In this document: piece by piece, positions 8,501-54,793 of the stretch | Numbering within the stretch: position 1 is the stretch's first letter | How the letters are laid out: each line of letters opens with the position of its first letter | From: Mytilus edulis | Taxonomy: Eukaryota | Length of the DNA stretch: 64,000 nt | Assembly (NCBI RefSeq): GCF_963676685.1 | Contig: NC_092351.1 | Span: 37,944,001 to 38,008,000 of the forward strand | Direction of reading: 5' to 3' | Program-made: the position numbers and the translations under genes | The notes under the pieces: generated by a model | What the model was told of the DNA's origin: nothing | The model's database searches: none | Seen by the model: only the letters and a program-made list of their open reading frames with translations

Positions 8501-11500
8501 TGTCCATTGAACATGGAAAATGATAATGCGAGTGGGGCATCCGTGTACTTTGGACACATTCTTGTTGTCAATAGTATATGCTTGAAAATAACAGAAGAAT
8601 GATGTTTAAAACAATTTTTTAGATTTTGTAGCTTAGTTCATCATCCAAAATGGCTGCCAGCGGGAGACTTATTTTAACTTAGGACCCTATAGGAATTACA
8701 TACAAATGTCTCTTTTGAGAGAACCACTGAATGGATTGAAACAAAACATGGCATGAATGTTCCTTATGGGGTGCTGACTAAATGTTGTTAATTTTTATCC
8801 GATCCATCATTCAATAAGGGCGCCAGCAGGGGACTTAGTTTAACATATAAGACCCTACAGGAAATACATGCACATTTCATCTTTTAGAAAACCACTAAAT
8901 GGAATGAAACCAAACATGGTATGATTGATCCTTATGAGATGATGACCAAGTGATGTTACTTTGTAGCTTTATTCATCCCCCAAAATGGCTGCCAATGGGG
9001 GACTTACTTTAACTTAGGACCCTATAGGAAATACATACAAATTTCTTCTTTTAGAAAACCTTTTTATCGATTGAAGCCAAACATGACATGAATGTTCCTA
9101 ATGACTTAGTAATGTGGTGCTGACCAAGGGTTGTTACTTAGTTACTTGTACTTTTTTGTAGCCAATCCATCATCCAAGATGGCTGCCAGCAGGGAACTTT
9201 GTTTAACATAGGACCCTACGGATAATACATGCAAATGTTCTAATAATCTTATTAAAGCCAGGTGAGCAATTCTGGCTCTCATGTGCCTCTAGTTTTGCTT
9301 GTTATCTCTCTATTTACATGTATATAAGTTTCTTCTTATATTTCAGATCTCAGCTTACAATACCTTGGGAATCAGCGTCAAAAAGAACACAAAGTTATTA
9401 CTTGAAAAAAGCTGATGACTTGGTATTAGGAACTTTACAGCTGATTGCCCCAAACCAGTCAGACACCTTATTTAAGAGTATTGTCCAAAAGAACAAGACA
9501 GTTAACCTTGATTGTCCTGATAATTATCTTCCGTCTATGATTGCTGCATACCAAGAAGCAGATTCTCCATATCTTAAACGTCAAATTTTATCACTATTTG
9601 CAAGTAAATATTCTAAAGAGGCTTTATTGACCGCAATACCTGGTTTGACAAAACACAAGATAGAAGCTGCGAGAAAATATGGAAAGGTCAAAGAAACAGA
9701 ATTGCTAGATCAAGACCATAATATGACTGCCAAACTTCCCATCGAAAAAGTTCAGCATTTTGTAAGTTTTGTATCTCAGCCACAATATGTTCAAGATGTT
9801 GCATTTGGAGAAAGGATCCTTAAACTATCTACTGGACAAAAAATACATATACCTGATGTTGTTAGAACAGTAATAGGCAGTCGAATAATTTCATCTTACA
9901 AAGCATATTGTTCAGAATCAAACTTTGAACCGTTGGGAAGATCAAGCCTGTACAACATTTTGAAGCAGTGTTCAGCAAGTCAGCGTAAAAGCCTTAGTGG
10001 TTTAGACAATACAACAGCAGATGGTATAACATCTTTTGACAAGCTAATCAGTTTGACAGACAATATGGAGGATTTCACTCAAAATGAAGTTCATGATTTC
10101 AAGGTATTTTATTCAATATTTTTGGATACAGATGCCCTATAATTTGTCCTACCATATGTCTTAGTAAGATCCATATAACTCGTTTGCCCACCATAAAGGA
10201 ATGTTACTTTGTAGAACTTGTTTTCATGTGGACAGTAGCTGACCAATTCTCAAAGTTTTCTAGCAGTTATGAATGCGCTAAAAGAATATTTAAACCTCAT
10301 ACGGAAAAAATATCAAAATTTGCAATGAAAATATAAATATCAGATGTATAGGTATTTACAATCTTGTAACTTACATACGGTATGCTTTGAAAGTCCATGA
10401 TCTATCTTCACGGACAGTTCCAAGATCAAAGAACTCGTATGAGATTACATCTACATATATATGAAATTCTGGAAAAATTACATGTTTGCCCAAATCATAA
10501 CTTTATACATGTAATTGTTTGAACATAATAATAGAAGGATGAAACTATGTATGAATGTAGAGTAATTTTTTTACAGTGCAATTGTCAGTTTGTAATCACC
10601 AATGACTCACCATGCAGCATGTCATATTTCTAATGCATTTTACAGTTGTATAATTTTCATATGAATATAAAGCATGTTATACATGTATAAGGGATGATAT
10701 GAATACTTTTTTTTATCTTGCAGGACATTCAACGAAGATTACGAGCTTCAAAGCGGTATTTGTCTTGCGATTACAGATGGCATGTTGAAAAATCATCAAA
10801 AGTAGCTGATCATTGCATGCATTATGCTCTTAGTGATTCAAACGTAAAAGATTTACAAGAGAAATGTGATCATACACATGACGAATGTTGTGAACTGTGT
10901 ACAGATATGAGCTCTGTAATTGACGACCTAGAGCAGATTGTTATAGATGGAACATTTCCATCAGAAGAAATGAAAACTGAATATCTGCATGACTTCCAAA
11001 GCTGCAAGGAAAAAGTGTTTCAGTGGAAGCAACATGTATTGAGAACAGTCAGTCAAGAACAGGCAAAACATTTGGTTCTTGAGAATCTTCTTCCAAATGA
11101 AATTTTTATAGTTATGGATTGGGCAATGAAATTTCTTCCATGGTTTGACCGTGAAAAGCAAACTGATTTTTATGGTAAAAAGGGAATTAACTGGCATGTA
11201 AGTGTTGTATTATCCAGAGGTATTGATATGAAAATCAATACTGACTGTTATGTACATTTGTTTGACAGTATCCCCCAAGGATGGTATGCTGTTGCTTCAA
11301 TAATTGAGAGCTTATTAAACTGCATAAAAAGCAAAGATGAAACTAAAGATACAGTATATCTTCGTAGTGATAATGCCTCCTGTTATCACTGTGGACCACT
11401 GATGGCTGCTATTCCAGAAATTTCTCAAAGAACAGGATTAAACATTTCTCGGTACGATTTCAGTGAAGCTCAAAGCGGTAAGGATATTTGCGACAGAAGA

Positions 11501-14500
11501 ACTGCTCCAATGAAGATACATGCAAAACGGTTTGGAAATGAAGGTAACAATATTACAACTGCAGAAGAGTTGAAAAGAGCCCTTGAAAGTTATAGTGGTA
11601 TCATGAACACACATGTGTATGTTGCTGAAGTTGATTTTAGTGCACAGACTATGAAAAAATGTTCCATACCAAACATAAATATGTACAACAATTTCAGCTT
11701 TGAGATTGGAGGTCTTAGAATGTGGCAAGCTTATGATGTTGGCATAGGTGTCTTCATTTCATCTAGGGATTTGAAGAAGATGTCAAATGGAAAACAAGAT
11801 GAAACAAATCTTAAGGTGAGTAGAAATTTAAAACAAGCCAAGTGTATAGTATTATTTTAGGTTTAGACATGCAGGAAAAGCCCTTTTAATCAATAAACAT
11901 TCTGACAAAGTGTGTTTTTCTAACCAAACTAATCCTTTGACAAATAAAAATGTACCAAGTTCAAATGTAAATAACTTTTTTTTAATATCAAATCTATACA
12001 ATTGGCAAGGTTGATGGTAAATTGAAAGGCCCAAGTAAAAAATTGTATAACAACAAAATATAGTTATAATTTTTTGCCCTAGGTCTTCTCCTTTTCTAGA
12101 AACATGTTCAAGTTTAACATGGTATTACACTGTCATGCCTGTTATTTTTTACCCTTGAAATAAATTCACAAAAAAATTTGAATTTTAAAGAAAAAAAACC
12201 TGATCCTAATTTTAGAGTGGATGTAAAAGGAAGCACAATTTTTTTTTCCTTTTTGTCAAAGAACACTAATGAATTCATATTGAATAAGAAGTGTACAATG
12301 TTATAACTTTAAAATTACTACAACTTGTTTGTATTATTAATATTTTTGCTTGACTATATTGTAGATACTGGAAATGCCAAAAGTTACCAGAATAGGAAAG
12401 AGTAAAATAAGACCAAGAAAGAGCCTTAAGAGGAAGCACAGTGAAACAAATAATGAAAAGGTTTTCATTTTTTTTCTTATTTTTATGATACAATATGAAT
12501 AAATGAATAAGAAGATGTGGTATGAATGCCAATGAGACAACTCTCCATTTAATACACAATGTAGGTAAAGTAAGCTAGGATTTTTATCAAATCAGCTGTA
12601 AAGGACCCCAAAATGGCCAGTAAAAATCTTTTTCAAGCCAGGAAAACAACAACCTTATTATAACGTATACAAAATAAAAATGAACACACGAAAACAACAG
12701 ACTGAATTAGAAAAGGTTTTTACAAAATGCAGCAAGTTTGTATGTTTTAAGTTCATCTCCCTTTTGGACTCCTCAAATGTACATTTTACATGAATGTTGA
12801 ACTAAGTAATAATATATAAGCTTTAAAAGTCCAAAGTCTGCTCAAAGATCCTTTAACTTACTAAGGTAAATTTTACATGTTTAAAACTGAGTTAAATGTA
12901 AAATTTACTTTCTTAACTGTTATCACCTATATCAATTTTAGATAACAATATTGGAAATATGTGTTTATGATTAGTATATTTTTACAGGAAAGAAATGAAA
13001 CAGGAGATGTTGAAGACAATATAGAGGAAATAAATGAGGAGAACACAGAGGAAAATGCTGCTAGTCATGAACAGATGAATGAGGTAACAGATACATATAG
13101 ATTCTTACACTAAAACAAGTGTACTATGATAATTCTTCACTCGAGACAGTTAAATTTTATTATTTAAAGCGCAAGGCTTGCCGAGCCCTTTAAATAATAA
13201 AATTTAACTGGTGAGAGTGGAGAAATATCGTTATACAGGAGTTATAGTGTCGGAATCTGTTTCTCTAATGCTTTTTATCGTTCTTTTTCAAAGATTTTCA
13301 GAAAATTGTGTTCTTTATATGCGATGTCATCAGGCAAGGTCGCCTTTTTTCATGACGTCACAATAGGAAAATGGAGAAGAAAACAAAACATTTTGACGTC
13401 ATAATCAAATTTCGACTAATCATTTGCCGTGAACAGATTTTTCACTAGTGAGGAGAAATATTTTTCTCACACCGGTCAGGAAATGTGAAAATAGCACAAA
13501 AATTAGAGAAATACAATGTATATTCTTTTGTGGTTAACATCACTATCCTTTCATCTTGCAAAAGAAATTAAGGATGGACCAATCTATCTAGACTTTGACA
13601 ATATTGTTCATAGATATAAGAAGATGTGATGTGAGTGTCAATGAGACAACTCTCCATCCAAATAACAATTTAAAAAAGTAAACCATTATAGGTCAATGTA
13701 CAGCCTTCAACACAAAGCTTTGGCCCAAACCGAACAACAAGTTATAAAGGGCCCCAAAATTACTAGTGTAAAACCATTCAAACAGGAAAACCAAAGGTCT
13801 AATGTTTGTTTAGGTTTTATTAGTGTCCTGTGTTGTTAGTGTCTTTATACCCCCAAATAAACAAGTTTTCAGGGATATATATAGGAATCACCCTGTCGTC
13901 CCTCCATCTGTCTGTCCATCACATCTCATAAGTGCAACTCTTCCTTAGTATTGATGTAACTTCAAACAGTTGTAGTACACAACCTAAGGATGTGGACAAA
14001 GGAAAATATTTAAGGATGGAACTATTTTAAGGGAGATAATTGACTTTACTTAGTTAAATATACATCTAGCAATAAATGGCAACAAGTCTTGTTAGCGCAA
14101 TTACTCCTAAAAAGAATAAAATTGATGAAACTTTACCCAGTTGTACACAACCTGAAGATGTGCATGAAGGAGGATATTTCTGGTCTGATTTTTTTCAGGG
14201 GAGATAATTGAAATTACTTAAGTTTAAATACCCACAAATTCGTTCAAAGTATACATGTATGCATGATAGAGTGATTCAATTCTGCTGTTTTTTCACTTCT
14301 TTTATACAAATGTATTTTTTTTTCTTTTGCAGACTGATGACTATACTTGTGGTGAATGTGGTCTTACATTTGTTAGTCTACATGAATATAACATTCACCA
14401 GGACATTGGAAATCATAAGATCAGGCATGCTGATCGAGTAAAAACTTTTTGGAGTAGTAAATGCACTAACATAAAAGAGTCAATGACAAGTGTTTTTTCA

Positions 14501-14893
14501 AAAGCAACTGATGATCAGACACCACAGTCTAAAACACAATGTTCACTACATTCAGGATGGTCATTGAAAGGAAGAAGAATGAATAAGAGATTTAGCATAG
14601 CTGTAAAAGACTATTTACTTAATTTATTTATGGAAGGTGAACAAACTGGCCGAAAATATACTCCAACAGAGGCTTCCAAAAAAATAAGAGCAGTCAGGGA
14701 TGAAAATGGGAATAGGCTTTTTTTGCCAGAAGAATGGCTGAGCTCACAACAAGTACAGGGTTTATTTTCCAGATTTGTCAATCAATCTGGAAAAATTCCT
14801 AAAGAGGAATCTGATGATGAACTAAATGATGCTATTATAGAAATTACTCGTCAGGAAAATGAACTTGCACTAATTCATTCAATTTGTCAATGA
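2549..14893 (+). CDS. Sola3-type DDD transposase, 9 predicted exons, ~1118 aa, with an N-terminal Cys/His-rich region and a C-terminal C2H2 finger
   Basis: Exons 2549-2924, 5511-5624, 6290-6424, 7314-7443, 9347-10103, 10724-11815, 12365-12460, 12988-13083 and 14333-14893. All are GT-AG and phase-compatible, totalling 3357 nt without internal stops. Motifs: MDWAMKFLP..FYGKKGINWH, LRSDNASCYH, FSEAQSGKDICDR and YTCGECGLTFVSLHEYNIH. Confidence 0.82.
3234..3378. repeat. Long imperfect palindrome (hairpin end typical of the small Crypton-like elements in this window)
   Basis: ATAATTGTCTAGTGTTTTTA..CTGTATTTGTAC..AGGTGTA..AGCT/AGCT..TACACCT..GTACAAATACAG..TAAAGACACTTAACAGTTAT. Confidence 0.6.
3386..4065 (+). 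mobile_element. Non-autonomous Helitron-like element in transposase intron 1
   Basis: 5' A|TCTATAATACTAAAA. 3' hairpin CCCGCGATATCACGGG followed by CTAG|T. Internal ~140-bp duplication (~3425-3560 vs ~3762-3900). Confidence 0.7.
6746..6876. repeat. Degenerate long palindrome (hairpin element)
   Basis: TAATACAGGGCCTTTTCCATA..GGTATCAT pairs with ATGATACC..TATGGAAAAGACCATGTATATTA. Confidence 0.5.
7091..7237. mobile_element. GC-rich MITE family (GGCGGATCCAG...GGATCCGCCCCTG); second copy at 61891-62013
   Basis: Shared core GATCAATGCATTT(A/G)AATGGGGACATA(C/T)AGTTGGA and inverted GGATCC ends. Confidence 0.6.
7470..7965 (+). mobile_element. Degenerate HINE/Helentron-type non-autonomous element
   Basis: 5' (CGT)n-like microsatellite. 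3' hairpin GCTGCGCTCTGTGGAGCA followed by TCTGGTTTT. Confidence 0.45.
8590..9296 (+). mobile_element. 3' part of a HINE/Helentron-type element with ~170-190-bp internal tandem repeats
   Basis: The unit ..ATGGCTGCC..GGACCCTA(T/C)..GAAACCAAACATG repeats about four times. Ends CAGGTGAGCAATTCTGGCTCTCATGTGCCTCTAGTTTT. Confidence 0.65.
13099..13511. mobile_element. Small non-coding element with a terminal ~160-bp hairpin plus an internal/terminal inverted repeat (Crypton-like end structure)
   Basis: Hairpin AGATTCTTACACTA...TAGTGTCGGAATCT (13099-13258), immediately followed by GTTTCTCTAAT, whose complement ATTAGAGAAA ends the element at 13502-13511. Confidence 0.65.
13843..14215 (+). mobile_element. 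HINE-type 5' fragment
   Basis: TTTATACCCCC..GGGATATATATAGGAATCACCCTGTC followed by a (CTGT)/(CCAT) microsatellite and two ~170-bp subrepeats. Confidence 0.45.
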
Positions 14894-21386: not shown

Positions 21387-23863
21387 TATCCACCTATTGC
21401 TAAGTTAATGAACATTCTATTGAAAAATAGTTCAGAACCTTAAAAATTGACTCGTTTTCCATGATCTGGCATCAAGATTTGTTTTGCAATCAGACTATTA
21501 CAAGTTACTATTTCAATTTGAAACCTAAATGTGAAAAATATATTCATTTAGGTCACGGAAGACGCACCAATAAGTCGTTTAGTATATTATTATAGAGTTT
21601 GGTTTAGTTTCTAGAACATTATTAACTTTAATAAATGTATTAATACAGATTCCGGATTTACAGTTGTATGTATTATTAGCTAATTTGAAGCATGCATGTT
21701 TAACTTCGCCACATTCTTATTTGCTCCCCCCGGCACACATTGTGACAGGGGAATATTGATATGTTCACTTTGGTCTTCGTCTTGCCGGCAGTTAAACTAG
21801 CGCTTAAGTCAGGCGTACATTTTGCTGTGCGGGGTGTACAAGTTTACAGCCACGTCCGGTTATATTGTATATAACTTCAATTTAATCTCTCTTGTACAGA
21901 GAGTGTCACGTTCTCTGCACGTTAAAAACATGAAACTCGTCGAGGGGTTCGTAGGATAACTATTCTATATATCCTCATTTTTCAGTGGCAGTTAAAATTT
22001 CTCCTATCTTCATTTCGGACAACCTATACTACAAGACCTACCTATTGTATATATTGTTAATTTGTCCTGGAAGTATTTGCCACTTGACGTTTAGCAACCA
22101 ATAATAAATCAATCTTATATGTTTCTATTCTGAAACCGGAATATCGGTAGGTTCCGTTAGTTCATGTCCCTCGTATTCGTTTTTTCATTTATAAATTTGA
22201 AATATATTATGCCGTTTATTTCATCGTATGAGTTATTTCGGGCCTTTTACAGTTGACTTAATATGAATATTGAAGCAACCAACAATCAATCATTATATTT
22301 AGATATATGTAGTAAATCCAATGGTGACAGGTAGTAAAAGATAACGGATCCTTCAGAGTAAAGGAAGTTTCATGAAAGACACAAATGTATTTTGTATAAG
22401 AAACGTCGCACGCTACTGGTGTTACTTTGGTAAAATCACGGACAAGACACATTCATCTTATTAATTTTTAAACATAAAAATTGATATTATAAAGTGTTGT
22501 ATATCATTTTAAAGCTTTTAAACTCTTCTTTCAGATTATTGCAATTTTGTATATGTAACAGACCATTTTCATTAATTAAAACTCAATAAAATAAAACCTT
22601 TATTTTGCAATATGATTTCCTTGTCCCGCGTTACACTTTTAGTTTTGTGAAATTCTGAATACCGTAAAAAACATATAAATTTTATTACCAAACGATATAA
22701 AAGTTTGTCTAGAACAAGCAATTCATAATTGGGCGATGACGTAATGTCGATTTTTTTCTCTCGAAAAGACGGAAATATAAAAAAAAAGGGATCAAGATGA
22801 TACAAATTATTTGTCCCATGCACGAAAGGTTGCCGTAATTTTTGTTAAATTGTCTCAAAAAAGGAAATTTCAAAGTAATCCCCATGTCGAAAATAAATAA
22901 TTCTTATACTTGTATTTTGTAGAAAGATCACACTTTCGCCTCATGCAATAATCAGGATTTTTTAAAATAAATTCTTATTATTCGAGTTGAATAGCAATGT
23001 CCGACATTTTGTCCCCTTCAAACTAAATTAAACGTATGGTTACGTTTTCTGTTTTTTTTTCATGATGTTTATTTAATACAGTGCCATTCGCTACATAAAA
23101 CAAATTATAATGGATAAAAGTACAAAAAATTAGCTCTATTTTGATAATAAATTCCCATAAATTAAATATAATATACGAGATATCAGATAAAACTAAAATG
23201 TCCGATACAATGTCCCCACATACGATTTTGACGTTATTTTATAAAAATATACTTCTAACGTTCCGTCTAATTGTCATTATTGCGGTTTTCACAGACGATT
23301 TGGAATACGGCTATTTTATTTTGTTGCTTAATAAGAAAACTTTAAAATTAATTTTTTATGTGGAAGCTCTACCGATTCATAAAGAAGGGGTTGGGAGAGA
23401 TTTTCTCGCGGAACTGAAGTGTTTTCCGGACTATAATAGTCGGATCCGCTATAATACAAATTAATAGAAAAAAAACAGCAATAATAATTGTTCCCGTTAA
23501 TTCCCTTGCATATATTTGTACAGAACTAAGATGCTAGATATGCAGTAGTCCTTTCGCCTTTATTTGACATTCTGGAGTGCAAAGATGAGTGCATTTGCAG
23601 TGCATAGTATACCCATAAAAAAAGTAATCGATTGCCTTTATAATTAAAATGTATATAAAACAAATGGTTTCAATTCAAGTTACTTTTTTATTTTTAATTT
23701 GCTAATAAAACTAAAGCTTAACATCTTTTATCTAAGAAAAAACAATTAATCCTTTCTTAGGGAAAAAAAATCAATCCTTTAAAATTTATTGTAAAAAGCC
23801 ATCTGAACAACATGCATTCCAACGTTTTTATTTTGGCTTACGTCTTTGAGTGTGTAACGTTAG

Positions 23864-26367
23864 TTAACACATGACATCTAGGCAAAATTCCTTTGATCTT
23901 ACTGTGGTATAATCTGGATAATGCACGGGTCAGGTGTGCATTAACTACTTCAATAATTGCACAGGTCACGTGAACTTCACGTCCTGGCCAGATGTTTATT
24001 GTACAGTACTTTGCGTTTGTTGATTCCATTGCTACTACAGATATTTGTTTTTCTCCATTTTGTAAGAAATATCAAGTGGATACATGTGTCTATACTCGGA
24101 CATAAAAATCAGTCAATTGGTAAAACATCAGAATAGAAAACATACAAAACAAATGTAGTAGCATTACAATCAACACAATACAAGTCTAAATAAGATAAAG
24201 AACACACAGGTTGATTTAATACTAAAATTATTTTTCCATCAATATAAAAAAAATTGTCATTAAAAAAAAATGAAAATAAAGTATCATCGACATCTTCCTA
24301 TTATAGTCTTGATATGTAAGATATCAGTGTCACAACATGACACAATGAAAACTAAAAAAAAAACCCCGCTTTTTCATACATTTCTATGTACGGCTTAAAA
24401 ACAACTTAAAATAACAATTCAGTGTTAAAAATTGAAAACAAAATCTGTGAGGTTCACATCTTCGTTACAAAATTGAGCACGCAGTTTTGAAAAGAGCTGT
24501 TACTTGGCAATCCCCGATATTTTCCTTCTGGTTTTGAAACATTAAATGCATTTTCTGTATTTTCAATATTAAATTGCTCAGAAAGGATTGCACGAGTATC
24601 GGTTAATGGTTTGGGATTCTCAAGTTTTATCTGCTTATTAGATGGATTCAAAATGTTAGAGCATATTGTCTTCATGAGTGACCCTAATCTATTAGCACCC
24701 AGTATGTGGTCAAACTTAACAGAACCATCATATAAAACAGGTCTACGATAAAAAGGACTGCTAACCGATTTATCAATTTCGTATATTGCATTCATATACA
24801 TCTGATACGATTTTAGGGTCTGACAATCCTTCTCTAAATATTGTCTGACAGATTTTGGTGCAATATAGCGATGGTGTAGCCCTCCATTATAGGTTTTATT
24901 ATCCTTACCCCGGCATTCAATATAGTTTCCGTTATCATCTTCTCCTAATTGTATTTGAGAAATTTGCAGATTACGGTGTTCGTCACGACCACGTAGACCA
25001 AAATATTTACAGTTGTAGAAAAAAACAGTATGCAATAAACTTTCGGATGAATGATTACCAAACACAGACTTGTCCCACAATATTTCTTCCTGTTCAACTG
25101 AAATTGGATCTGCTTGTTTAACATTTATACCATGCCCATCTGATGTTAATTTCTTCATCTGTGCATCAAGTATTTGTCTAAACCTCAGAAAGTTAAGATT
25201 AGAAACACCGTGTGACCGCATTCCTCTTAGAAGTCCAGTTACAAGAAGATAAAGTGTTTTCGCTGGATATTTCTCTCCATTCTTTTTCCGAACTTCTACT
25301 ACAAATTTTCCTAAAATGCTGTTAATATCTTGAACAGACAAATCCTTCAGGTTTGGTATAATTAAACCACTACCAATTTTAGAATTCTTCCAGTCTTCAT
25401 AGACATTAACTGCCCATTGTGTGGCTTTCTTTGTGTTTTTGTTCTCAGCATCTTCAATAAGTGTATCAATTTCATTGTCTGTCATTTCTGCAAACCTTGA
25501 TTCGACTCCTTGTTCCTGATCTTTAGGTTCTTCATCCTAAAATAAGATAATATCACATAATTCAACACATGGCAGAGGCAAAATCCAGCAGTGGCAAATA
25601 TTTCATGAATGTTCCGGATGAGAACAATTAAACGATAAAACTAGTCGGAAGTTTCCGTAAATGATTATATCAAGGGTCTAAATAGCAGATCCAGAACTTT
25701 TTATTTAAGGGGGAGGGCTGACTGACCTAAAAGGAGGGGGCGCGCGTCATGCTTCAGTGATTCCCTATATAATCAACCATTTTTTTTCCACAAAAGAGGG
25801 ACCCGGGACTCCATCCCTTGGATCCGTCTATGGGTCCACACCTCAAATCATGCCATAATGGGTCTGCGCGTGGCAGATAATTCTAAAAAAAAAGACGTAC
25901 CTTGACATTTTGGATCTTTCCGTTTTCCGAAGGAACTTGCAACCATAGATCTAAGTCTAGTCCTAGGTCAAATGAAACAGCTGAGGTGTCGATTAAATCT
26001 CCAGATGCATTTTCATCCATCACATTACTAGGAAACTCTCCAAAAAAGTCCTCTATATTTACATTTCTCAGTTCCATTTCATCCTCCAATGTTTCTAATA
26101 CTTGTGATAAGATCATATCATCCTCCGATAATTCATGATGAAATCCACCCATTTCAACGTCTTGTTGGGCGGATGTGATTTATGCGGGAAAATTGTTGAC
26201 GTCATGTGTTAAAACAGTTATTGGCCAATCAAATCGGTATATGTTTTAATTTGCACAGCACGAGATGACCCATTAACCCGAACTCCTTCGTCGTTCGGGT
26301 TAAACAGGGTCACTCGAGCTGTGCAAATTAAATCCCATATACCGACTTGCTTGGTCAATAACTATAA
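23864..26367 (-). mobile_element. Crypton-like tyrosine-recombinase DNA transposon, copy 1
   Basis: Boundaries are defined by near identity with 28205-30098. No TSD. Terminal hairpin at 26215-26365 and 12-bp inverted repeat TTAACACATGAC (23864) / GTCATGTGTTAA (26201). Confidence 0.82.
24454..26152 (-). CDS. Crypton-type tyrosine recombinase (DUF3504/QRICH1/ZMYM-like), 2 exons, ~444 aa; open frame but C-terminal catalytic segment deleted
   Basis: Exons 26152-25901 and 25536-24454 (GT-AG, phase 0). Motifs: NTKKATQWAVNVYEDW, LGKFVVEVRKKNGEKYP and YFGLRGRDEHRNL. Lacks the ATRL..TGHRS..VRTY segment present in copy 2. Confidence 0.8.
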
Positions 26368-28204
26368 TGTGACACCAGTATCGTGCGACGTTTCATAAAA
26401 AAGACCATTCAAATATCTACTTGAGAGTCGGACTGCCTGAGTTCCTAGATTGAGGCTGTGACCCGAAGTACTATTTTGACATTCAAAATATGTTAAACTA
26501 CTAAGGAAACATATCTGCAAAACTTCACAGAACAAATGGGTATATTTATCCCTGATAGAAGATTGCTCAAATTTGGACTAAACCATTCGATTTACATTTA
26601 CTGGTCTGAATATTCAGGTATGGCAGATGTGTTGAGTGTGGGTAGTGGGGGAGGGGAGGGGTTTGGAGGATGCATAAAAAAAAAACGTTTAACAAATTTC
26701 CAGGCAGAAAATATGAGTACTAATCTTTCAATCTTTGAAAGTTTGCACATTTCTCTTCATGTTTGCTACATGTATGCTCAATGCTCCACCGCCTACGATA
26801 AATTCTAACCCCCCTTTTATCTATAACTTTGATTGCTCCTTGATATTTCCTTCCTTTCGATTACCTTTTATTTTTACCATTCTTAATTTTTTATGACCCA
26901 AGAAGTGTCATTGATGATTAATGTCCAACAGCAAGTATTACATGCATAACATACTAGTAGTAAAGTGATATGAAAACGAACATATGAATTCACAAGAACG
27001 AATAAATAACTATATATATATATATATAGATACTTATTTCTAATTCTTTAACTTGACAGGAGATTTAATCAACGTTGTCCCGCCCTCGGAGCATGCTACC
27101 ACAAGATTTGACTAAGTACACCAATATTGATTGAAAATAAAGTAATTTGAATATTATTCTACTTTCATAATACACACATTGAAAATACTTTCATGATAAA
27201 ATTTAAATGAAAATGAAAATGAAAGTGTGTATATCATTTAACCAGAGCACCCATTGATCTTTATTTAAATTTCACTGACTGTTTATTTTATTGATATATA
27301 AAGACATTTTATCAACAAAATCTGCAGTGTCAGCAATTTAAGTGTTATACATGATAAAAAGAACCGAAACTAGTGTATATCTGTACATAATAATGTATAA
27401 TTGATCGGGTTTTAAAAATAAATAATCTACGTGTCAAAGATTATTAAGCAACACGGATGTAAAATTGAAGAGAACGAAAGGAAAGTTAAAAGATGGGAAA
27501 GGTATTTATAATCTTTATTATAAGGCTTTAATCGGTGAAGTAATGTTGTTTATCGACTTTACTTTGTATTTTGTAGTAAATGTCCTCAGTTAATATCAAG
27601 TCACAAAGCAAATCATAATTAAAGTTAGAGGTTTGTGTACATTGAACACTCGCAAATATTAAAGATATCCAGTATTATATACTAGACATTGGTAGCGAAA
27701 CAAGACAAAGGGTATAGGTCAAAGAAACCACAATAAAACTAGTAGAAAGGATTTCTAGAGGGTAATCTATGAATGGAATATATTAGTAATAAGCTAGCGT
27801 TTCCATGCCAGTACATGTCAAACTCTGAATCGTGTTAAGTATATATTTAATACAGATAATACTTAAGAACTGCAGACGATACATAATCCTTGAATGGTTT
27901 TAGGGTTCATCTGCACATACAACAAGCACATGTAGGTCGGCTACATGTCACGAAAAAATAATATGCGCTTCTCTGTACTATATTGATACGATGGAAATGT
28001 ATTTCAAGAGACCTGTAGCGAACACACTCGTCAGATTCTTAAGCATCTATAATTCCGAGCATTATTTTTTTTTTATCGAAGATGTCCCTCGAATGCGTTA
28101 ATGACCAACTAATCAATAAATATATAGAGGTCGTGAAATATGGTGTTTCTAATATCCAGGAATTCTGCATTGCTATTAACAAACATTATTCAAAATGCCA
28201 GACT

Positions 28205-30098
28205 TTAACACATGACAGAGGCAAAATTCCTTTGATCTTACTGTGGTATAATCTGGATAATGCACGGGTCAGGTGTGCATTAACTACTTCAATAATTGCA
28301 CAGGTCACGTGAACTTCACGTCCTTGACAGATGTTTATTGTACAGTACTTTGCGTTTGTTGATTCCATTGCTACTACAAATATTTGTTTTTCTCCATTTT
28401 GTAAGAAATATCAAGTGGATACATGTATCTATACTCGGACATAAAAATCAGTCACTTGATAAAACATCAGAATAGAAAACATACAAAACAAATGTAGTAG
28501 TATTACAATCAACACAATACAAGTCTAAATAAGATAAAAAAAAAACACAGGTTAATTTAATACTAAAATTATTTTTCCGTCAATATAAAAAAAATTGTCA
28601 TTAAAAAAAATGAAAATAAAGTATCATCGACATCTTCCTATTATAGTCTTGATATGTAAGTTATCAGTGTCACAACCTGACACAGTGAAAACTAAAAAAA
28701 AACCCGCTTTTTCATACATTTCTATGTACGGCTTAAAAACAACTTAAATAACAATTCAGTGTTAAAAATTGAAAACAAAATCTGTGAGGTTCACATCTTC
28801 GTTACAAAATTGAACACGCAGTTTTGAAAAGAGCTGTTACTTGGCAATCCCCGATATTTTCCTTCTGGTTTTGAAACATTAAATGCATTTTCTGTATTTT
28901 CAATGTTAACTTGCTCAGGAAGGATTGCACGAGTATTTGTTAATGGTTTGGGGTCCTCAAGTTTTATTTGCTTATTAGATGGATTCAAAATGTTAGAGAC
29001 ATCTTTTAGCATAGAATCTGCAGGTCTTTTGTAGGTACGAACAGCCTTTTCACTCCTGTGACCTGTTCTATCCATTATCATCTGCTCACTGACTCCTGCT
29101 TGGTACAATCTAGTTGCAAGTGTTCTTTTCTTCATAGACATTAACTGCCCATTTTGTGGTTTTCTTTGTGTTTTTGTTCTCAGCATCTTCAATAAGTGTA
29201 TCAATTTCATTGTCTGTCATTTCTGCAAACCTTGATTCGACTCCTTGTTCCTGATCTTTAGGTTCTTCATCCTAAAATAAGATAATATCACATAATTTAA
29301 CACATGGCAGAGGCAAAATCCGGCAGTGGCAAATATTTCATGAATGTTCCGGATGAGAACAATTAAACAATAAAACTAGTCGGAAGTTTCCGCAAATGAA
29401 TGTATCAAGGGTCTAAGTAGCAGATCCAGAACTTTTTATTTAAGGGGGAGGGCTGACTGACCTAAAAGGAGGGGGCGCGGATCATGCTTCAGTGATTCCC
29501 TATATAATTAACCATTTTTTTCACAAAAGAGGGACCCGGGACTCCATCCCTTGGATCCGTCTATGGGTCCACACCTCAAATCATGCAATAATGGGTCTGC
29601 GCGTGGCAGATAATTCTAAAAAAAGACGTACCTTGACATTTTGGATCTTTCCGTTTTCCGAAGGAACTTGCAACCATAGATCTAAGTCTAGTCCTAGGTC
29701 AAATGAAACAGCTGAGGTGTTGATTAAATCTCCAGATGCATTCTCATCCATCACATTACTAGGAAACTCTCCAAAAAAGTCCTCTATATTTACATTTTTC
29801 AGTTCCATTTCATCCTCCAATGTTTCTAATACTTGTGATAAGATCATATCATCCTCCGATAATTCATGATGAAATCCATCCATTTCAACGTCTTGTTGGG
29901 CGGATGTGATTTATGCGGGAAAATTGTTGACGTCATGTGTTAAAACAGTTATTGGCCAATCAAATCGGTATATGTTTTAATTTGCACAGCACGAGATGAC
30001 CCATTAACCCGAACTCCTTCGTCGTTCGGGTTAAACAGGGTCACTCGAGCTGTGCAAATTAAATCCCATATACCGACTTGCTTGGTCAATAACTATAA
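28205..30098 (-). mobile_element. Crypton-like element, copy 2 (internally deleted)
   Basis: Near-identical to copy 1, including the intron, UTRs and hairpin (29946-30096). Inverted repeat at 28205 / 29932-29943. Confidence 0.82.
28791..29883 (-). pseudogene. Tyrosine recombinase pseudogene: core deleted and frameshifted, but the catalytic C-terminal segment is retained
   Basis: Exon 1 spans 29883-29632 and exon 2 starts at 29271. A deletion junction at ~29128/29129 shifts the frame. The downstream frame reads KRTLATRLYQAGVSEQMIMDRTGHRSEKAVRTYKR (H and nucleophile Y of tyrosine recombinases). Confidence 0.82.
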
Positions 30099-30636
30099 CG
30101 TAATCATGGACCCATATAGTTTAAGATGTAAAAATAAAAATTAATAGGTGTCAACATTGTACCTTTCTTTTCAATTCGACAATTCATATAGATAAAATGT
30201 ATTTGCAGTCAAAACCAAAAAAATAAAATAAGGACAAGTTGTATGATTGTCAATGAGACAACTACCTACAGGAATTAAAATGACGAAGATAAAAGCAAAT
30301 TATAGGTCAGCGTACGATATATTTTCAGCCGTCAACAATGAAAAATACATATCGTATAATTACCAATAAAATCTGAGCCTGTGGTGTTACAGTACAACAT
30401 ATGAACAAACTAAAAAATCAGTTTGCAAATGACTAAGCCCAATAGATCGGTATCGAGCAAAAACGAAAACCAAAAAGACTAAACTCAGTATAGACATAAA
30501 TGACCACTATATAAGAGTGCTTGCAGTTATTTAAAGCTGAATTAAAACCAATTACAACTAACAAAAACAAATCTTGTTTTTCGTAATTTCAGATAAGTAA
30601 TTTCAACTCATCAAATCTAAATTTACAAATTTTCAG

Positions 30637-52600: not shown

Positions 52601-54793
52601 CAACTTTTGTTCCTCTATGATTTATATTCTATCAGAATTAAGTATTCATATTTTTTTCTTTTGTAGGAAATTTATAATATATGTTTGGAGGATATAGAAG
52701 AACAGTTATCAGGGCATAAAAAACTTGTACATGTATGTTATCCGTATTCTTATTTCTTCATCGTATAAAAATTATTTATGATCGTCTGTCAAACAACCAC
52801 AAACTAAGAGGTTTTTATTTGACTATTTGTGTAAATAGTTCAACTTCATCAACATATATTCATCAAGAAATAGATATTGTTGTCAATTGAACTCTTTTTA
52901 ACGTCTTGAGCGTGCACTACTAACTTCCGAATTATGATGAAAACATATATTACAGACATAGAAGAATAGTCCGTAGAGAAACAGAAAGTTCAACGGAGCT
53001 TTAAAACGATCCCAGCTAACGTAAAATATAATTTGAAAAATTGGGTCCGTGAAACACAGAATAAAGCAATATTAATTGCGCTTACTACTTTAGAAATAAG
53101 TAATAACCTGGTGATACATTAACCTTATTATTTGTCAGTGCAAATTTGTGCATCTCGTGTATAGCGTGATTGTCTTCTGTTATTGGTGTTATTGGCTTTA
53201 ACGGCTTAAAATTGTTTTTTAGGGTTTCAGTGATGACGAAATTGAACCATTCTTAAAAACAGCAAAAGAATCAGTGAAAACAAATGCCGCAAATTATATT
53301 CCTCTTCTATCCAGAGTAAGTTGGTCTAAAATAATGCAATGTGTGCACTGAATATTATTCATTGAACAGATAATTCAAAATTATATATAATTCGTTTGCA
53401 TCTGTCATTATTTATGTTTTTTCTTTGCTCGTGTTTAACATAACATGTGTTTACCTTTTCCATATTAAGACAGTCATTTTTCTTGTTGTGGAAAGCCGGG
53501 GAATAATAATAGATCCAAAGAGTTTCGGATGGAGTACAAAAAAGATTGAAAAGCATTGTCAGTTACGATAAGAGCCGAATGCATCTTTTCACTGTCGATA
53601 CCTTACAGTTAACAGACCAACCAGTTAAACCACATGGTTATCGAGGCCACTTCAAATAGTAAAATAATATTATCAATCAAGATTCACTTGCCCGATATTA
53701 AAGAATTACACATATAGGTTATTGTGCTGATCGAAGTGTCGACATAAATACCAATAATGTAGTATCATTTTTATAAATTTCCTTTTTACAAAACTTCGAA
53801 TTTTTCGAAAAACTAAGGATTTTCGTATCCCAGCCATAGATTACCTAAGCCGTATTTGACACAACGTTATGGAATTTTAGATCCTCAATGCTTTTCAACT
53901 TTGTACTTGTTTGGCTTTATGAATATTTTGATATGAGCGTCACTGATGAGTCTTATGTAGACGAATCGTGCGTCTGGCATACTAAATTATAATCCTAGTA
54001 CCTTTGATAACTAATTATAGACGTATGCAAATCTAGATTTAGAGGTTGATAATGACTTCAAGTCAAAGATTTTGTGACTAGAACGACAAGTTTAGTCCTC
54101 TTCAAAGTCTAGAAATGTATCATTACTTTACAGCTTATAGTTTTTTTTATCAGTACTGGTGTTAAAGAATCATGAACAGCTAGGAATACTATATATTACC
54201 TTTTTCAATAAATACAATCAATAAGAAATTCTGTAAAATGTTCATGCAAAGAAAAGCCATTAATTGCATAACTATTGAATGATGATAAGCTTAAATAGAG
54301 TTTACCAGCACATATCTTTCACTTTAGGTATATACGAGGCAAGCTATAGAAGCTCTTGTGGGTTTCTGATTTTTTAAATGAACAAATTTTTTAGAGAGAA
54401 ATAAGAAGATTGATTTGAGTTTAATGTATATTAAAAAAATCTACTCGTTCTCAAGTACTTTTGATCTGTAATTCATTATATTTCTGTCTTACTTTTCAGA
54501 AAATAATTAGCAGTACATCAACCTGTAAAATAGTAGCTAAATATAAAGATTTCAGTTTCAAATATATAGAAAATTGTGTGAAAATTTGTTACTTCGCAGC
54601 AGTTCAAAACCCGCCTATGGTGATAGATTTTGAACCTGGACAAATGTTTGATAAACAATCATATAGAGAATATACCAGATCAGGCACCGTTGTGGAGTAT
54701 TTAGTCTGGCCAGTCTTATATTTACATAAAGGAGGTCCGATTCTATCTAAAGGTGTTGTGCAACCAAAAGAGGAAAATAATAGTAATAAGTAG
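34608..54793 (+). CDS. Coiled-coil protein with a C-terminal MIEAP (mitochondria-eating protein/SPATA18-like) domain; 5' end uncertain
   Basis: Exons 34608-34667, 34839-34907, 36133-36195, 38505-38534, 38729-38791, 39907-39969, 41989-42051, 43081-43143, 43471-43533, 44373-44435, 45031-45093, 45951-46013, 47297-47359, 48333-48395, 49023-49085, 51931-52138, 52667-52732, 53223-53315 and 54500-54793, all GT-AG and in frame. Motifs: LRDNNPAITDLNDPNRPMKLGDQFSELYENEWTDAF and VQNPPM..FDKQSYREYTRSG..YLVWPVLYLHKGGPILSKGVVQ. Confidence 0.85.
37113..38036 (-). mobile_element. Penelope-like retroelement-derived fragment (degenerate RT C-terminal region plus 3' sequence); related pieces at 59850-60285 (+) and 63935-64000
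   Basis: The minus strand at 38036-37730 translates approximately HQGFRYHKLVKSFTKFYHRYEDIIRKYSSTCRLLIRSGISQ. The Penelope-like assignment is from memory of the motif. Confidence 0.55.
40495..41578 (+). mobile_element. 5'-truncated LINE (CR1/L2-like) 3' fragment in an intron; ORF remnant to 41175 plus 3' UTR
   Basis: KLYIELGLETLENRRNKHKLILFYKILNG..RTSSYFSSLIPSTIRLWNSLP..HCQLRNNASNL..CVNCNHPVEDNKHFFFICPKY. AATAAA at ~41561. Confidence 0.85.
44141..44180 (+). ncRNA. Degenerate minimal hammerhead ribozyme (350-bp repeat family)
   Basis: CACCA-CTGAAGA-GACAATAATTGTC-GAAA-TGCGTA-TA, followed by decayed family sequence (AGGGTATCAACCGCCCAGTA). The 3' arm of stem I is mutated. Confidence 0.5.
45148..45190 (+). 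ncRNA. Degenerate minimal hammerhead-like motif (third family)
   Basis: GTGTTT-CTGATGA-AGTTAAACCCA-GAAA-AGCGCT-TC-GGATGC. Palindromic stem III; stem II is poorly paired. Confidence 0.45.
45205..45423. mobile_element. TA-flanked MITE (Tc1/mariner-type signature) with TTCGCG repeats
   Basis: TA|CTGTAAACCAACT...AGTTGGTTTACAG|TA. Confidence 0.8.
50110..51227 (+). mobile_element. HINE/Helentron-type non-autonomous element with (GGC)n and ~145-bp internal tandem repeats
   Basis: Same termini and body as 14894-15836, with one extra internal repeat. Inserted in a T-rich site. Confidence 0.82.
53735..54012 (+). repeat. Partial retrozyme-like unit with a mutated hammerhead (53937-53980)
   Basis: GCGTCA-CTGATGA-GTCTTATGTAGAC-GAAT-CGTGCG-TC-TGGCAT. 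Homologous to 58516-58893. Confidence 0.7.

What the first reader, a model, noticed from the sequence alone, without database searches (positions are those of the whole stretch)
24454..29883. Two adjacent recombinase copies with reciprocal deletions
Seen: copy 1 keeps the DNA-binding region and first catalytic Arg motif (FGLRGRDEH) in an open 444-aa frame but jumps from KTICS to NILNPS (junction ~24660, CTCTA shared with copy 2). Copy 2 has lost that core but keeps KRTLATRLY..TGHRS..VRTY (29000-29128). Together they rebuild nearly the whole enzyme. The short stretch with the expected N-H-S motif is absent from both. Neither copy can derive from the other, so both descend from a recent intact master, and two insertions 1.8 kb apart in the same orientation suggest local hopping. 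Copy 1 could make a DNA-binding, catalytically dead protein (a possible repressor), resembling how domesticated DUF3504 genes such as ZMYM2-4, QRICH1 and KCTD1 lost catalysis.
Basis: partly seen in the sequence, partly recalled or inferred. Interest (0 to 1): 0.72.

Follow-up and report, generated by a model that had tools for sequence, protein, structure and literature searches.

The report
Broken Crypton pair with splinted ends
These are two separately inserted, broken copies of a young jumping-gene family that has intact copies elsewhere in the genome, so their complementary look is likely coincidence; the family's ends, however, carry a built-in inverted copy of their own junction that is predicted to fold in single-stranded DNA and may show how these untested animal transposons move.

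Summary
Both copies belong to a young CryptonA (DUF3504 tyrosine recombinase) family with five intact copies elsewhere. Copy 2's 800-nt deletion is shared by 9 genomic copies (a dispersed non-autonomous subfamily), and its catalytic stretch is out of frame. Copy 1's 174-nt deletion is unique; it has a second, 24-nt deletion and drifts neutrally (11 non-synonymous, 4 synonymous changes). The two are not sisters (2.25% apart; each closer to distant copies) and inserted independently, so local hopping, reciprocity and domestication are not supported.

Two side results are more interesting. (1) Relatives insert next to each other far above chance: 9 of 96 gaps under 6 kb against 0.2 expected, 7 of them independent insertions. 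(2) In 6 of 7 diverged families, the far end's first 9-14 nt recur, reverse-complemented, 3 nt inside a long terminal hairpin. Joining the ends would extend that hairpin across the junction, like a DIRS ICR or CTX attP(+). Insertion is at N|WTA without duplication. A folded-single-strand mechanism is inferred, not shown. This scan noted a similar idea before in another genome (e1-9582103).

The parts
23864..26368 (-). Copy 1: near-full-length CryptonA copy with two private deletions; last base C>T and a 2-nt gain near the far end
24454..25536 (-). Copy 1 exon 2 (360 aa open, catalytically truncated)
25901..26152 (-). Copy 1 predicted exon 1 (84 codons, acidic); predicted intron 25900-25537, GT..AG
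   Evidence: splicing not seen
24660..24661 (.). Junction of the 174-nt deletion; removes 58 aa with H312, K315/R316, H338 and Y347 of exon 2 (three C-terminal helices); unique in the genome
25188..25189 (.). Junction of the 24-nt in-frame deletion at the start of helix 122-141 of the core-binding domain
26201..26212 (.). Inverted copy of the far end (12 of 12 nt), 3 nt inside the hairpin, copy 1
26216..26363 (.). Terminal 148-nt hairpin, copy 1
22392..23863 (.). Host of copy 1: 1.5-kb high-copy repeat with terminal inverted repeats; its last 30 or so nt continue at 26369-26402
26369..28204 (.). Spacer: mostly single-copy host DNA with diverged paralogues 80-87 kb upstream; 4 nt at 28201-28204 are absent from the empty site
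28205..30099 (-). Copy 2: member of the 800-nt-deletion non-autonomous subfamily, both ends intact
29128..29129 (.). Junction of the 800-nt frameshifting deletion, shared by 9 genomic copies
28998..29128 (-). Orphan catalytic stretch (KRTLATRLY..TGHRS..VRTY), out of frame with the start
29632..29883 (-). Copy 2 predicted exon 1; exon 2 starts at 29271
29932..29943 (.). Inverted copy of the far end, copy 2
29947..30094 (.). Terminal hairpin, copy 2 (-54.1 kcal/mol, z -14.3, 0 of 200 shuffles as good)

Best explanation
Two separately inserted, internally deleted copies of a young CryptonA tyrosine-recombinase transposon family lie 1.8 kb apart: copy 2 is one of nine copies sharing one 800-nt deletion and is likely moved in trans by intact copies elsewhere, copy 1 is a one-off that likely decayed after insertion, and their complementary look is likely coincidence. 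SHOWN: intact 510-aa masters exist; each copy's nearest relatives lie elsewhere; each sits in its own target; the element runs TTAAC...TATAAC and goes in at N|WTA with no target duplication; relatives neighbour each other far above chance; the far end's reverse complement lies 3 nt inside the terminal hairpin, family by family. INFERRED mechanism: recombinase from intact copies joins the two ends head to tail. On the joined top strand the hairpin extends by 12 bp across the junction, with a 3x5-nt internal loop at the joint, and forms the recombination site. One strand exchange needs only about 3 nt of likeness (the element's TTA against the target's WTA), and host replication or repair finishes the insertion. 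Recombinase bound at resident ends would bias new insertions towards existing relatives, which would explain why these two unrelated derivatives are neighbours.
For: Masters: 5 copies with 426-aa stop-free exon 2 and all motifs; Pfam DUF3504 2.9e-18 and Phage_integrase 4.2e-7, both above cut-off; Cre-like fold, E 3.5e-8. Copy-2 junction 9 hits, copy-1 junction 1 hit. Internal deletions are routine: three multi-copy deletion subfamilies (9, 3 and 9 copies) and several singletons among 42 copies, one (L013) losing the same catalytic stretch as copy 1. Tree of 38 of the 42 copies: copy 2 in the 800-deletion clade (UFBoot 93), copy 1 with intact L002/L003. Empty sites: 8 of 11 host-repeat paralogues continue directly across copy 1's site; copy 2's site is empty in a paralogue and in run X8; seamless empty sites for L071, L098, L107, L122. 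Right flank: T at +2 in 26 of 29 family copies and 30 of 30 MITEs, left flank unconstrained. Clustering: 9 of 96 gaps under 6 kb, null mean 0.20, maximum 4 in 100,000 draws; 7 of the 9 are independent insertions with different flanks, several end to end. End rule in 6 of 7 autonomous families with unrelated end sequences; a natural head-to-tail junction folds as predicted, -61.5 kcal/mol; a head-to-tail joint also stands in run X8.
Against: No intermediate, strand or activity was observed. Family F7 fails the end rule and F5's far end was not found; in F8 the match (9 nt) lies within the hairpin arm. The sister MITE keeps a G/A mismatch between far end and internal copy rather than a compensatory change. 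Clustering weakens to p=0.016 (for 6 or more) if only 10% of the genome is accessible, and only 100 of 328 ends were listed. The empty-site joints in reads have sides of 27-30 nt, and copy 1's could come from paralogues of its host repeat. Local copying does occur in a related family (L163/L164, identical, 11 kb apart). The canonical second Arg is Lys (H-S-G-K).
Confidence: 0.82

Rival explanations
1. One reading: both copies hopped locally from one recent master, and copy 1 is becoming a domesticated DNA-binding repressor like ZMYM/QRICH1/KCTD1.
For: Copy 1's two deletions are both in frame and its 444-aa frame is open; proximity is above chance; identical neighbouring copies exist elsewhere (L034/L038, L163/L164); a truncated protein could still bind ends (inference).
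Against: Not sisters; copy 2's deletion is genome-wide; neutral substitution pattern; core-binding helix clipped and QRICH1 profile score falls below cut-off, 33.2 to 30.7 against 30.8; the listed contigs of X8 and X10 carry the 24 nt that copy 1 lacks; domesticated DUF3504 genes are conserved over very long times (PMC3212892).
Confidence: 0.05
2. Same history, but transposition uses the classical double-stranded circle (Goodwin model). The hairpin and the inverted end copy are simply repeated recombinase-binding sites, and clustering reflects permissive regions rather than self-targeting.
For: It is the published model (PMC3212892; PMC13565253). A short TTA/WTA likeness also fits double-strand recombination. 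Copy 1 sits in an unrelated repeat, not in a relative's end. An inverted junction copy would also be a binding site in duplex DNA.
Against: It does not explain the fixed 3-nt register between inverted copy and hairpin across unrelated end sequences, a 90-170-nt stem at one end only, one-sided target likeness, or the sharp gap distribution (nine gaps at 1.3-5.2 kb, the next at 43.6 kb) with end-to-end insertions.
Confidence: 0.4
3. The pair is an assembly artefact (one element duplicated).
For: No long read spanning the locus was available; some family pairs elsewhere abut gaps or are 99.6-99.8% duplications.
Against: 39 differences in 1732 nt, different deletions, different nearest relatives; spacer at single-copy depth in four runs; a contig of an independent run spans the 800-nt junction without a gap (X16, 28760-29181).
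Confidence: 0.02

Closest known systems
CryptonA elements and their non-autonomous derivatives (Kojima & Jurka 2011, PMC3212892; parts 1-3 of 7, passages and supplement rows seen)
   Same: Single DUF3504/YR gene, no RT or DDE domain, no TIR pair, no target duplication, abundant deletion derivatives with intact ends.
   Different: That paper found no terminal repeats in animal Cryptons ('n.d.' in the two supplement rows seen); here the ends, the target rule N|WTA, a terminal hairpin and an inverted end copy are defined. Second catalytic Arg is Lys.
DIRS-1 internal complementary region (PMC7192593, passages seen)
   Same: Internal inverted copy of both adjacent ends, trinucleotide at the junction matching the target, reported preference for pre-existing copies, YR integration.
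   Different: DIRS is a retrotransposon with RT and inverted LTRs; here there is no RT, introns are kept, and the far-end match is only 9-14 nt, fused to a terminal hairpin.
CTX phage attP(+) and integron attC folded single-strand sites (PMC4246890, passages seen; attC from search listing and recall)
   Same: About 150 nt, two inverted halves that fold into a YR site; likeness to the target needed on one side only.
   Different: Bacterial, demonstrated, fixed dif or attI target; here eukaryotic, self-encoded recombinase, loose target, and no known source of single strand.
Domesticated DUF3504 genes ZMYM2-4, QRICH1, KCTD1
   Same: Sequence and fold likeness (QRICH1 chain E 1.3e-6; rank 1); loss of catalytic residues.
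   Different: Those are ancient, conserved, expressed genes; copy 1 is young, single, still inside its transposon ends, and drifting neutrally.

Membership tests
CryptonA | Encodes a DUF3504-type tyrosine recombinase as only recognisable domain | tested here: met
   Pfam on exon 2 of intact L002; fold; exon 1 has no Pfam hit
CryptonA | Catalytic tetrad R-H-R-Y in autonomous copies | tested here: inconclusive
   R190, H312, H338, Y347 present in 5 copies; the H-x-x-R position is Lys with an adjacent Arg, as in two other families of this genome
CryptonA | Interspersed, multi-copy, with sharp ends and empty sites | tested here: met
CryptonA | No TIR pair, no TSD; at most a short repeat reflecting target likeness | tested here: met
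   Seamless empty sites; TTA inside far end against WTA outside hairpin end
CryptonA | Groups with CryptonA rather than CryptonI/V in a YR phylogeny | not tested
   No reference Crypton proteins were fetched; assignment rests on the DUF3504 match, which PMC3212892 ties to CryptonA
Non-autonomous derivative (copy 2) | Internal deletion shared by dispersed copies with intact ends and no coding capacity | tested here: met
Domesticated DUF3504 gene (copy 1) | Purifying selection | tested here: not met
   11 non-synonymous, 4 synonymous, dN/dS 0.71; small numbers
Domesticated DUF3504 gene (copy 1) | Fixed at an orthologous locus | tested here: inconclusive
   Empty-site joints in 2 of 4 runs, but the host is a repeat; joint table truncated
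Domesticated DUF3504 gene (copy 1) | Expressed | tested here: inconclusive
   No listed RNA contig across copy 1's junctions or the intron; runs are shallow contigs of other animals
DIRS | RT/RNaseH, gag and inverted LTRs | tested here: not met
   2.7-kb element with one gene
Folded single-strand YR site (attP(+)/attC-like) | Recombinase acts on the folded strand | not testable with these tools
   Only folding and covariation shown

The most novel reading that the evidence does not exclude
Animal CryptonA elements carry a miniature DIRS-like complementary region fused to a long terminal hairpin. The joined ends fold on one strand into an attP(+)/attC-type site, integrate by a single strand exchange at N|WTA, and home towards resident relatives. 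This would make them the first eukaryotic DNA transposons that use a folded single strand as a tyrosine-recombinase substrate, and it gives a rule for predicting Crypton ends.
Probability: 0.4. Interest if true: 0.8.

Novelty: new member of a known kind. Interest (0 to 1): 0.45.

Why it matters
The pair itself is ordinary decay of an active family. The family matters because Crypton transposition has not been shown experimentally (PMC13565253) and animal Crypton ends were reported as featureless (PMC3212892). Here are intact young masters, exact ends, a target rule and a covarying end architecture that makes a sharp test: break the inverted copy, then rescue it by changing the far end. It would also link Cryptons mechanistically to DIRS elements and to bacterial single-strand integration.

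Tried and rejected
Reciprocal recombination: it would give a deletion plus a duplication, not two overlapping deletions. Deletions as spliced introns or microhomology events: 1-3 nt microhomology only. A target containing TTAAC with a TAAC duplication: refuted by empty sites lacking it. Donor-derived coupling bases: sister copies do not share left flanks; the 4 extra nt beside copy 2 stay unexplained. Composite element carrying the spacer: the spacer has only local diverged paralogues. Blind prediction of far ends for F5 and F7 failed. RNA runs X15, X16, X20 gave no splice joint and are too shallow to mean absence; small-share runs were not used to name a host. Of the 9 close gaps, 2 (L193, L195) are duplications with flanks and were dropped from the independent count; one listed end 140 nt from another (one perfect palindrome) was dropped before counting. 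Literature searches returned no paper whose listing or read passages describe this end architecture in Cryptons. Repbase entries, subscription papers and bioRxiv supplements could not be seen and may describe it; I recall Repbase noting hairpins in Crypton-related Eulor repeats, unverified. PMC12810828 (passage search) held nothing relevant. The host guess (a mussel-like bivalve) is inference from size and composition only.
Full report
OBSERVATION. Window 23864-26368 and 28205-30099 are two copies of one element, both with the gene on the minus strand. Against an intact copy (L002, 2695 nt), copy 1 lacks 174 nt at 24660/24661 and 24 nt at 25188/25189; copy 2 lacks 800 nt at 29128/29129. The large deletions overlap by 43 nt. 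With a predicted GT..AG intron, copy 1 gives 444 aa, copy 2 only 137 aa because its deletion shifts the frame, and intact copies 510 aa.

WHAT THE ELEMENT IS. Exon 2 of L002 matches DUF3504 (2.9e-18), QRICH1 (5.8e-8) and Phage_integrase (4.2e-7), all above cut-off. An AlphaFold model from a 19-sequence alignment (mean pLDDT 75, tail unconfident) matches QRICH1 and Cre (E 2.8e-8, 3.5e-8). Five copies have a stop-free 426-aa exon 2 with R190, H312, H338 and Y347; the H-x-x-R position is Lys. My motif matcher failed on 14 of the 42 copies, so these were judged. Copy 1's large deletion removes the three C-terminal helices, and its small one clips the start of helix 122-141. This is a CryptonA-type element as described in PMC3212892 (parts 1-3 of 7 read; passages; supplement rows).

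HISTORY OF THE PAIR. The copy-1 junction occurs once in the genome and the copy-2 junction nine times, on five chromosomes and one unplaced contig; the unplaced one repeats L034's flank, so there are 8 sites. Among 42 copies there are three multi-copy deletion subfamilies (9, 3, 9) and several singletons; L013 has lost the same catalytic stretch as copy 1. Copies 1 and 2 differ at 39 of 1732 sites. Copy 2 is 0.69-0.81% from five subfamily members; copy 1 is 1.44% from L002. In a tree of 38 copies (four truncated ones left out) copy 2 sits in its subfamily clade (UFBoot 93) and copy 1 with L002/L003. Copy 1 interrupts a 1.5-kb high-copy TIR repeat; 8 of 11 paralogues read straight across the site. 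Copy 2's site is empty in a paralogue 80 kb away and in one contig of run X8 (side 27 nt), both lacking 4 nt that lie left of copy 2. Copy 1 has 11 non-synonymous and 4 synonymous changes: compatible with neutrality (p=0.53) and unlike the 6:18 between active subfamilies (p=0.007). Of four DNA runs, three show the master-type joint and two a joint skipping copy 1, which may come from host-repeat paralogues; tables were truncated. Three RNA or RNA-guess runs showed short family contigs but no splice joint and no listed copy-1 junction. So the copies are independent insertions and their complementarity is incidental.

WHY ARE THEY NEIGHBOURS? An exact 19-nt end pattern has 328 hits, 100 listed. 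After dropping one palindromic double hit, 9 of 96 gaps are 1.3-5.2 kb and the next is 43.6 kb; random placement gives 0.20 (maximum 4 in 100,000 draws), and placement in 10% of the genome gives 2.0 (p=0.016 for 6 or more). Two of the nine are duplications with flanks. Seven are independent insertions of relatives 76-93% alike or of different subfamilies, including head-to-tail and head-to-head contacts within 0-6 nt. Two more close MITE pairs found are local duplications (L196, L197). A related family shows two identical copies 11 kb apart in different flanks, so true local copying occurs too. DIRS-1 is reported to prefer pre-existing copies (PMC7192593 passage).

ENDS AND TARGET. Copies begin TTAAC and end TATAAC. 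The flank after the hairpin end is W-T-A (T at +2 in 26 of 29 family copies and 30 of 30 sister MITEs); the other flank is free. Four further empty sites are seamless. The last 150 nt form a hairpin (z -14.3). Three nt inside it lies the reverse complement of the first 12 nt of the far end. In six other DUF3504 families of this genome whose far ends could be set from shared boundaries (25-47% protein identity, unrelated end sequences), five repeat the rule: exact matches of 12, 10, 10 and 9 nt, and one of 13 of 14 nt, all starting at far-end position 1. Cross-family matches are 4-9 nt. F7 fails, and F5's far end was not found. A natural head-to-tail junction in the genome folds into the hairpin extended by 12 bp with a 3x5 loop at the joint, and a head-to-tail joint is present in run X8.

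MECHANISM (inferred). Intact copies supply recombinase; ends join head to tail; the joined strand folds into the recombination site; one exchange tests about 3 nt of the target; the host completes the insertion. Precedents: the DIRS ICR and junction trinucleotide (PMC7192593 passages) and CTX attP(+) (PMC4246890 passages). The rival is the double-stranded circle model, which is untested for Cryptons (PMC13565253 passage); how a single strand would arise is unknown.

NOVELTY. Passages of PMC13465315, PMC5753468 and PMC8969392 describe Crypton ends only as short direct repeats or as poorly conserved. An unchecked note of this scan on another genome proposes a similar single-strand reading; I had noted mine before that look-up. 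Look-ups by sequence and by genome were empty.

VERDICT. Observation confirmed; interpretation partly supported. The pair is ordinary (about 0.15 alone). The family-level end rule and clustering raise the interest to 0.45.

Noticed in passing
L073:3406-4713 and L097-L126: A 1.2-1.6-kb sister MITE family with the same ends, hairpin and target rule; 328 exact hairpin ends genome-wide include it.
   Followed up: yes
L163:1269-7065 and L164:1267-7063: Two identical 5.8-kb copies of a related Crypton family 11 kb apart in different flanks: a likely true local copy event.
   Followed up: partly
L034 and L038: Identical 800-deletion copies 15 kb apart, inverted; one abuts an assembly gap but has its own right flank.
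   Followed up: partly
L075, L196, L098: Crypton or MITE copies inside local inverted or tandem duplications (99-100%), two with filled and empty target side by side; could be resolution products or assembly effects.
   Followed up: no
window 25559-25590 and 29293-29324: The predicted intron holds a direct copy of the element's far end, and further on a piece of a very high-copy repeat (25746-25790).
   Followed up: no
window 28201-28204: Four bases beside copy 2's far end are absent from both empty sites; copy 1 has a changed last base and a 2-nt gain near its far end.
   Followed up: partly
L002 exon 2 residues 312-316: H-S-G-K in place of H-x-x-R, shared with two other families here, while a third has H-S-L-R.
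   Followed up: partly
window 22392-23863 and 26369-26402: 1.5-kb repeat with about 37-nt terminal inverted repeats, at least 40 copies at 95-99%; class not determined.
   Followed up: partly
window 9207-14893 (+): Three long open frames (311, 385, 207 aa) with no Pfam match above cut-off; possibly exons of an unclassified transposase.
   Followed up: no
window 54425-54793 (+): Exon matching MIEAP, PF16026, E 3e-12.
   Followed up: no
L010 and L020/L074: Family copies interleaved with gag-like frames of a retroelement (label recalled, not tested); L074 is split by a 5.5-kb insertion.
   Followed up: no
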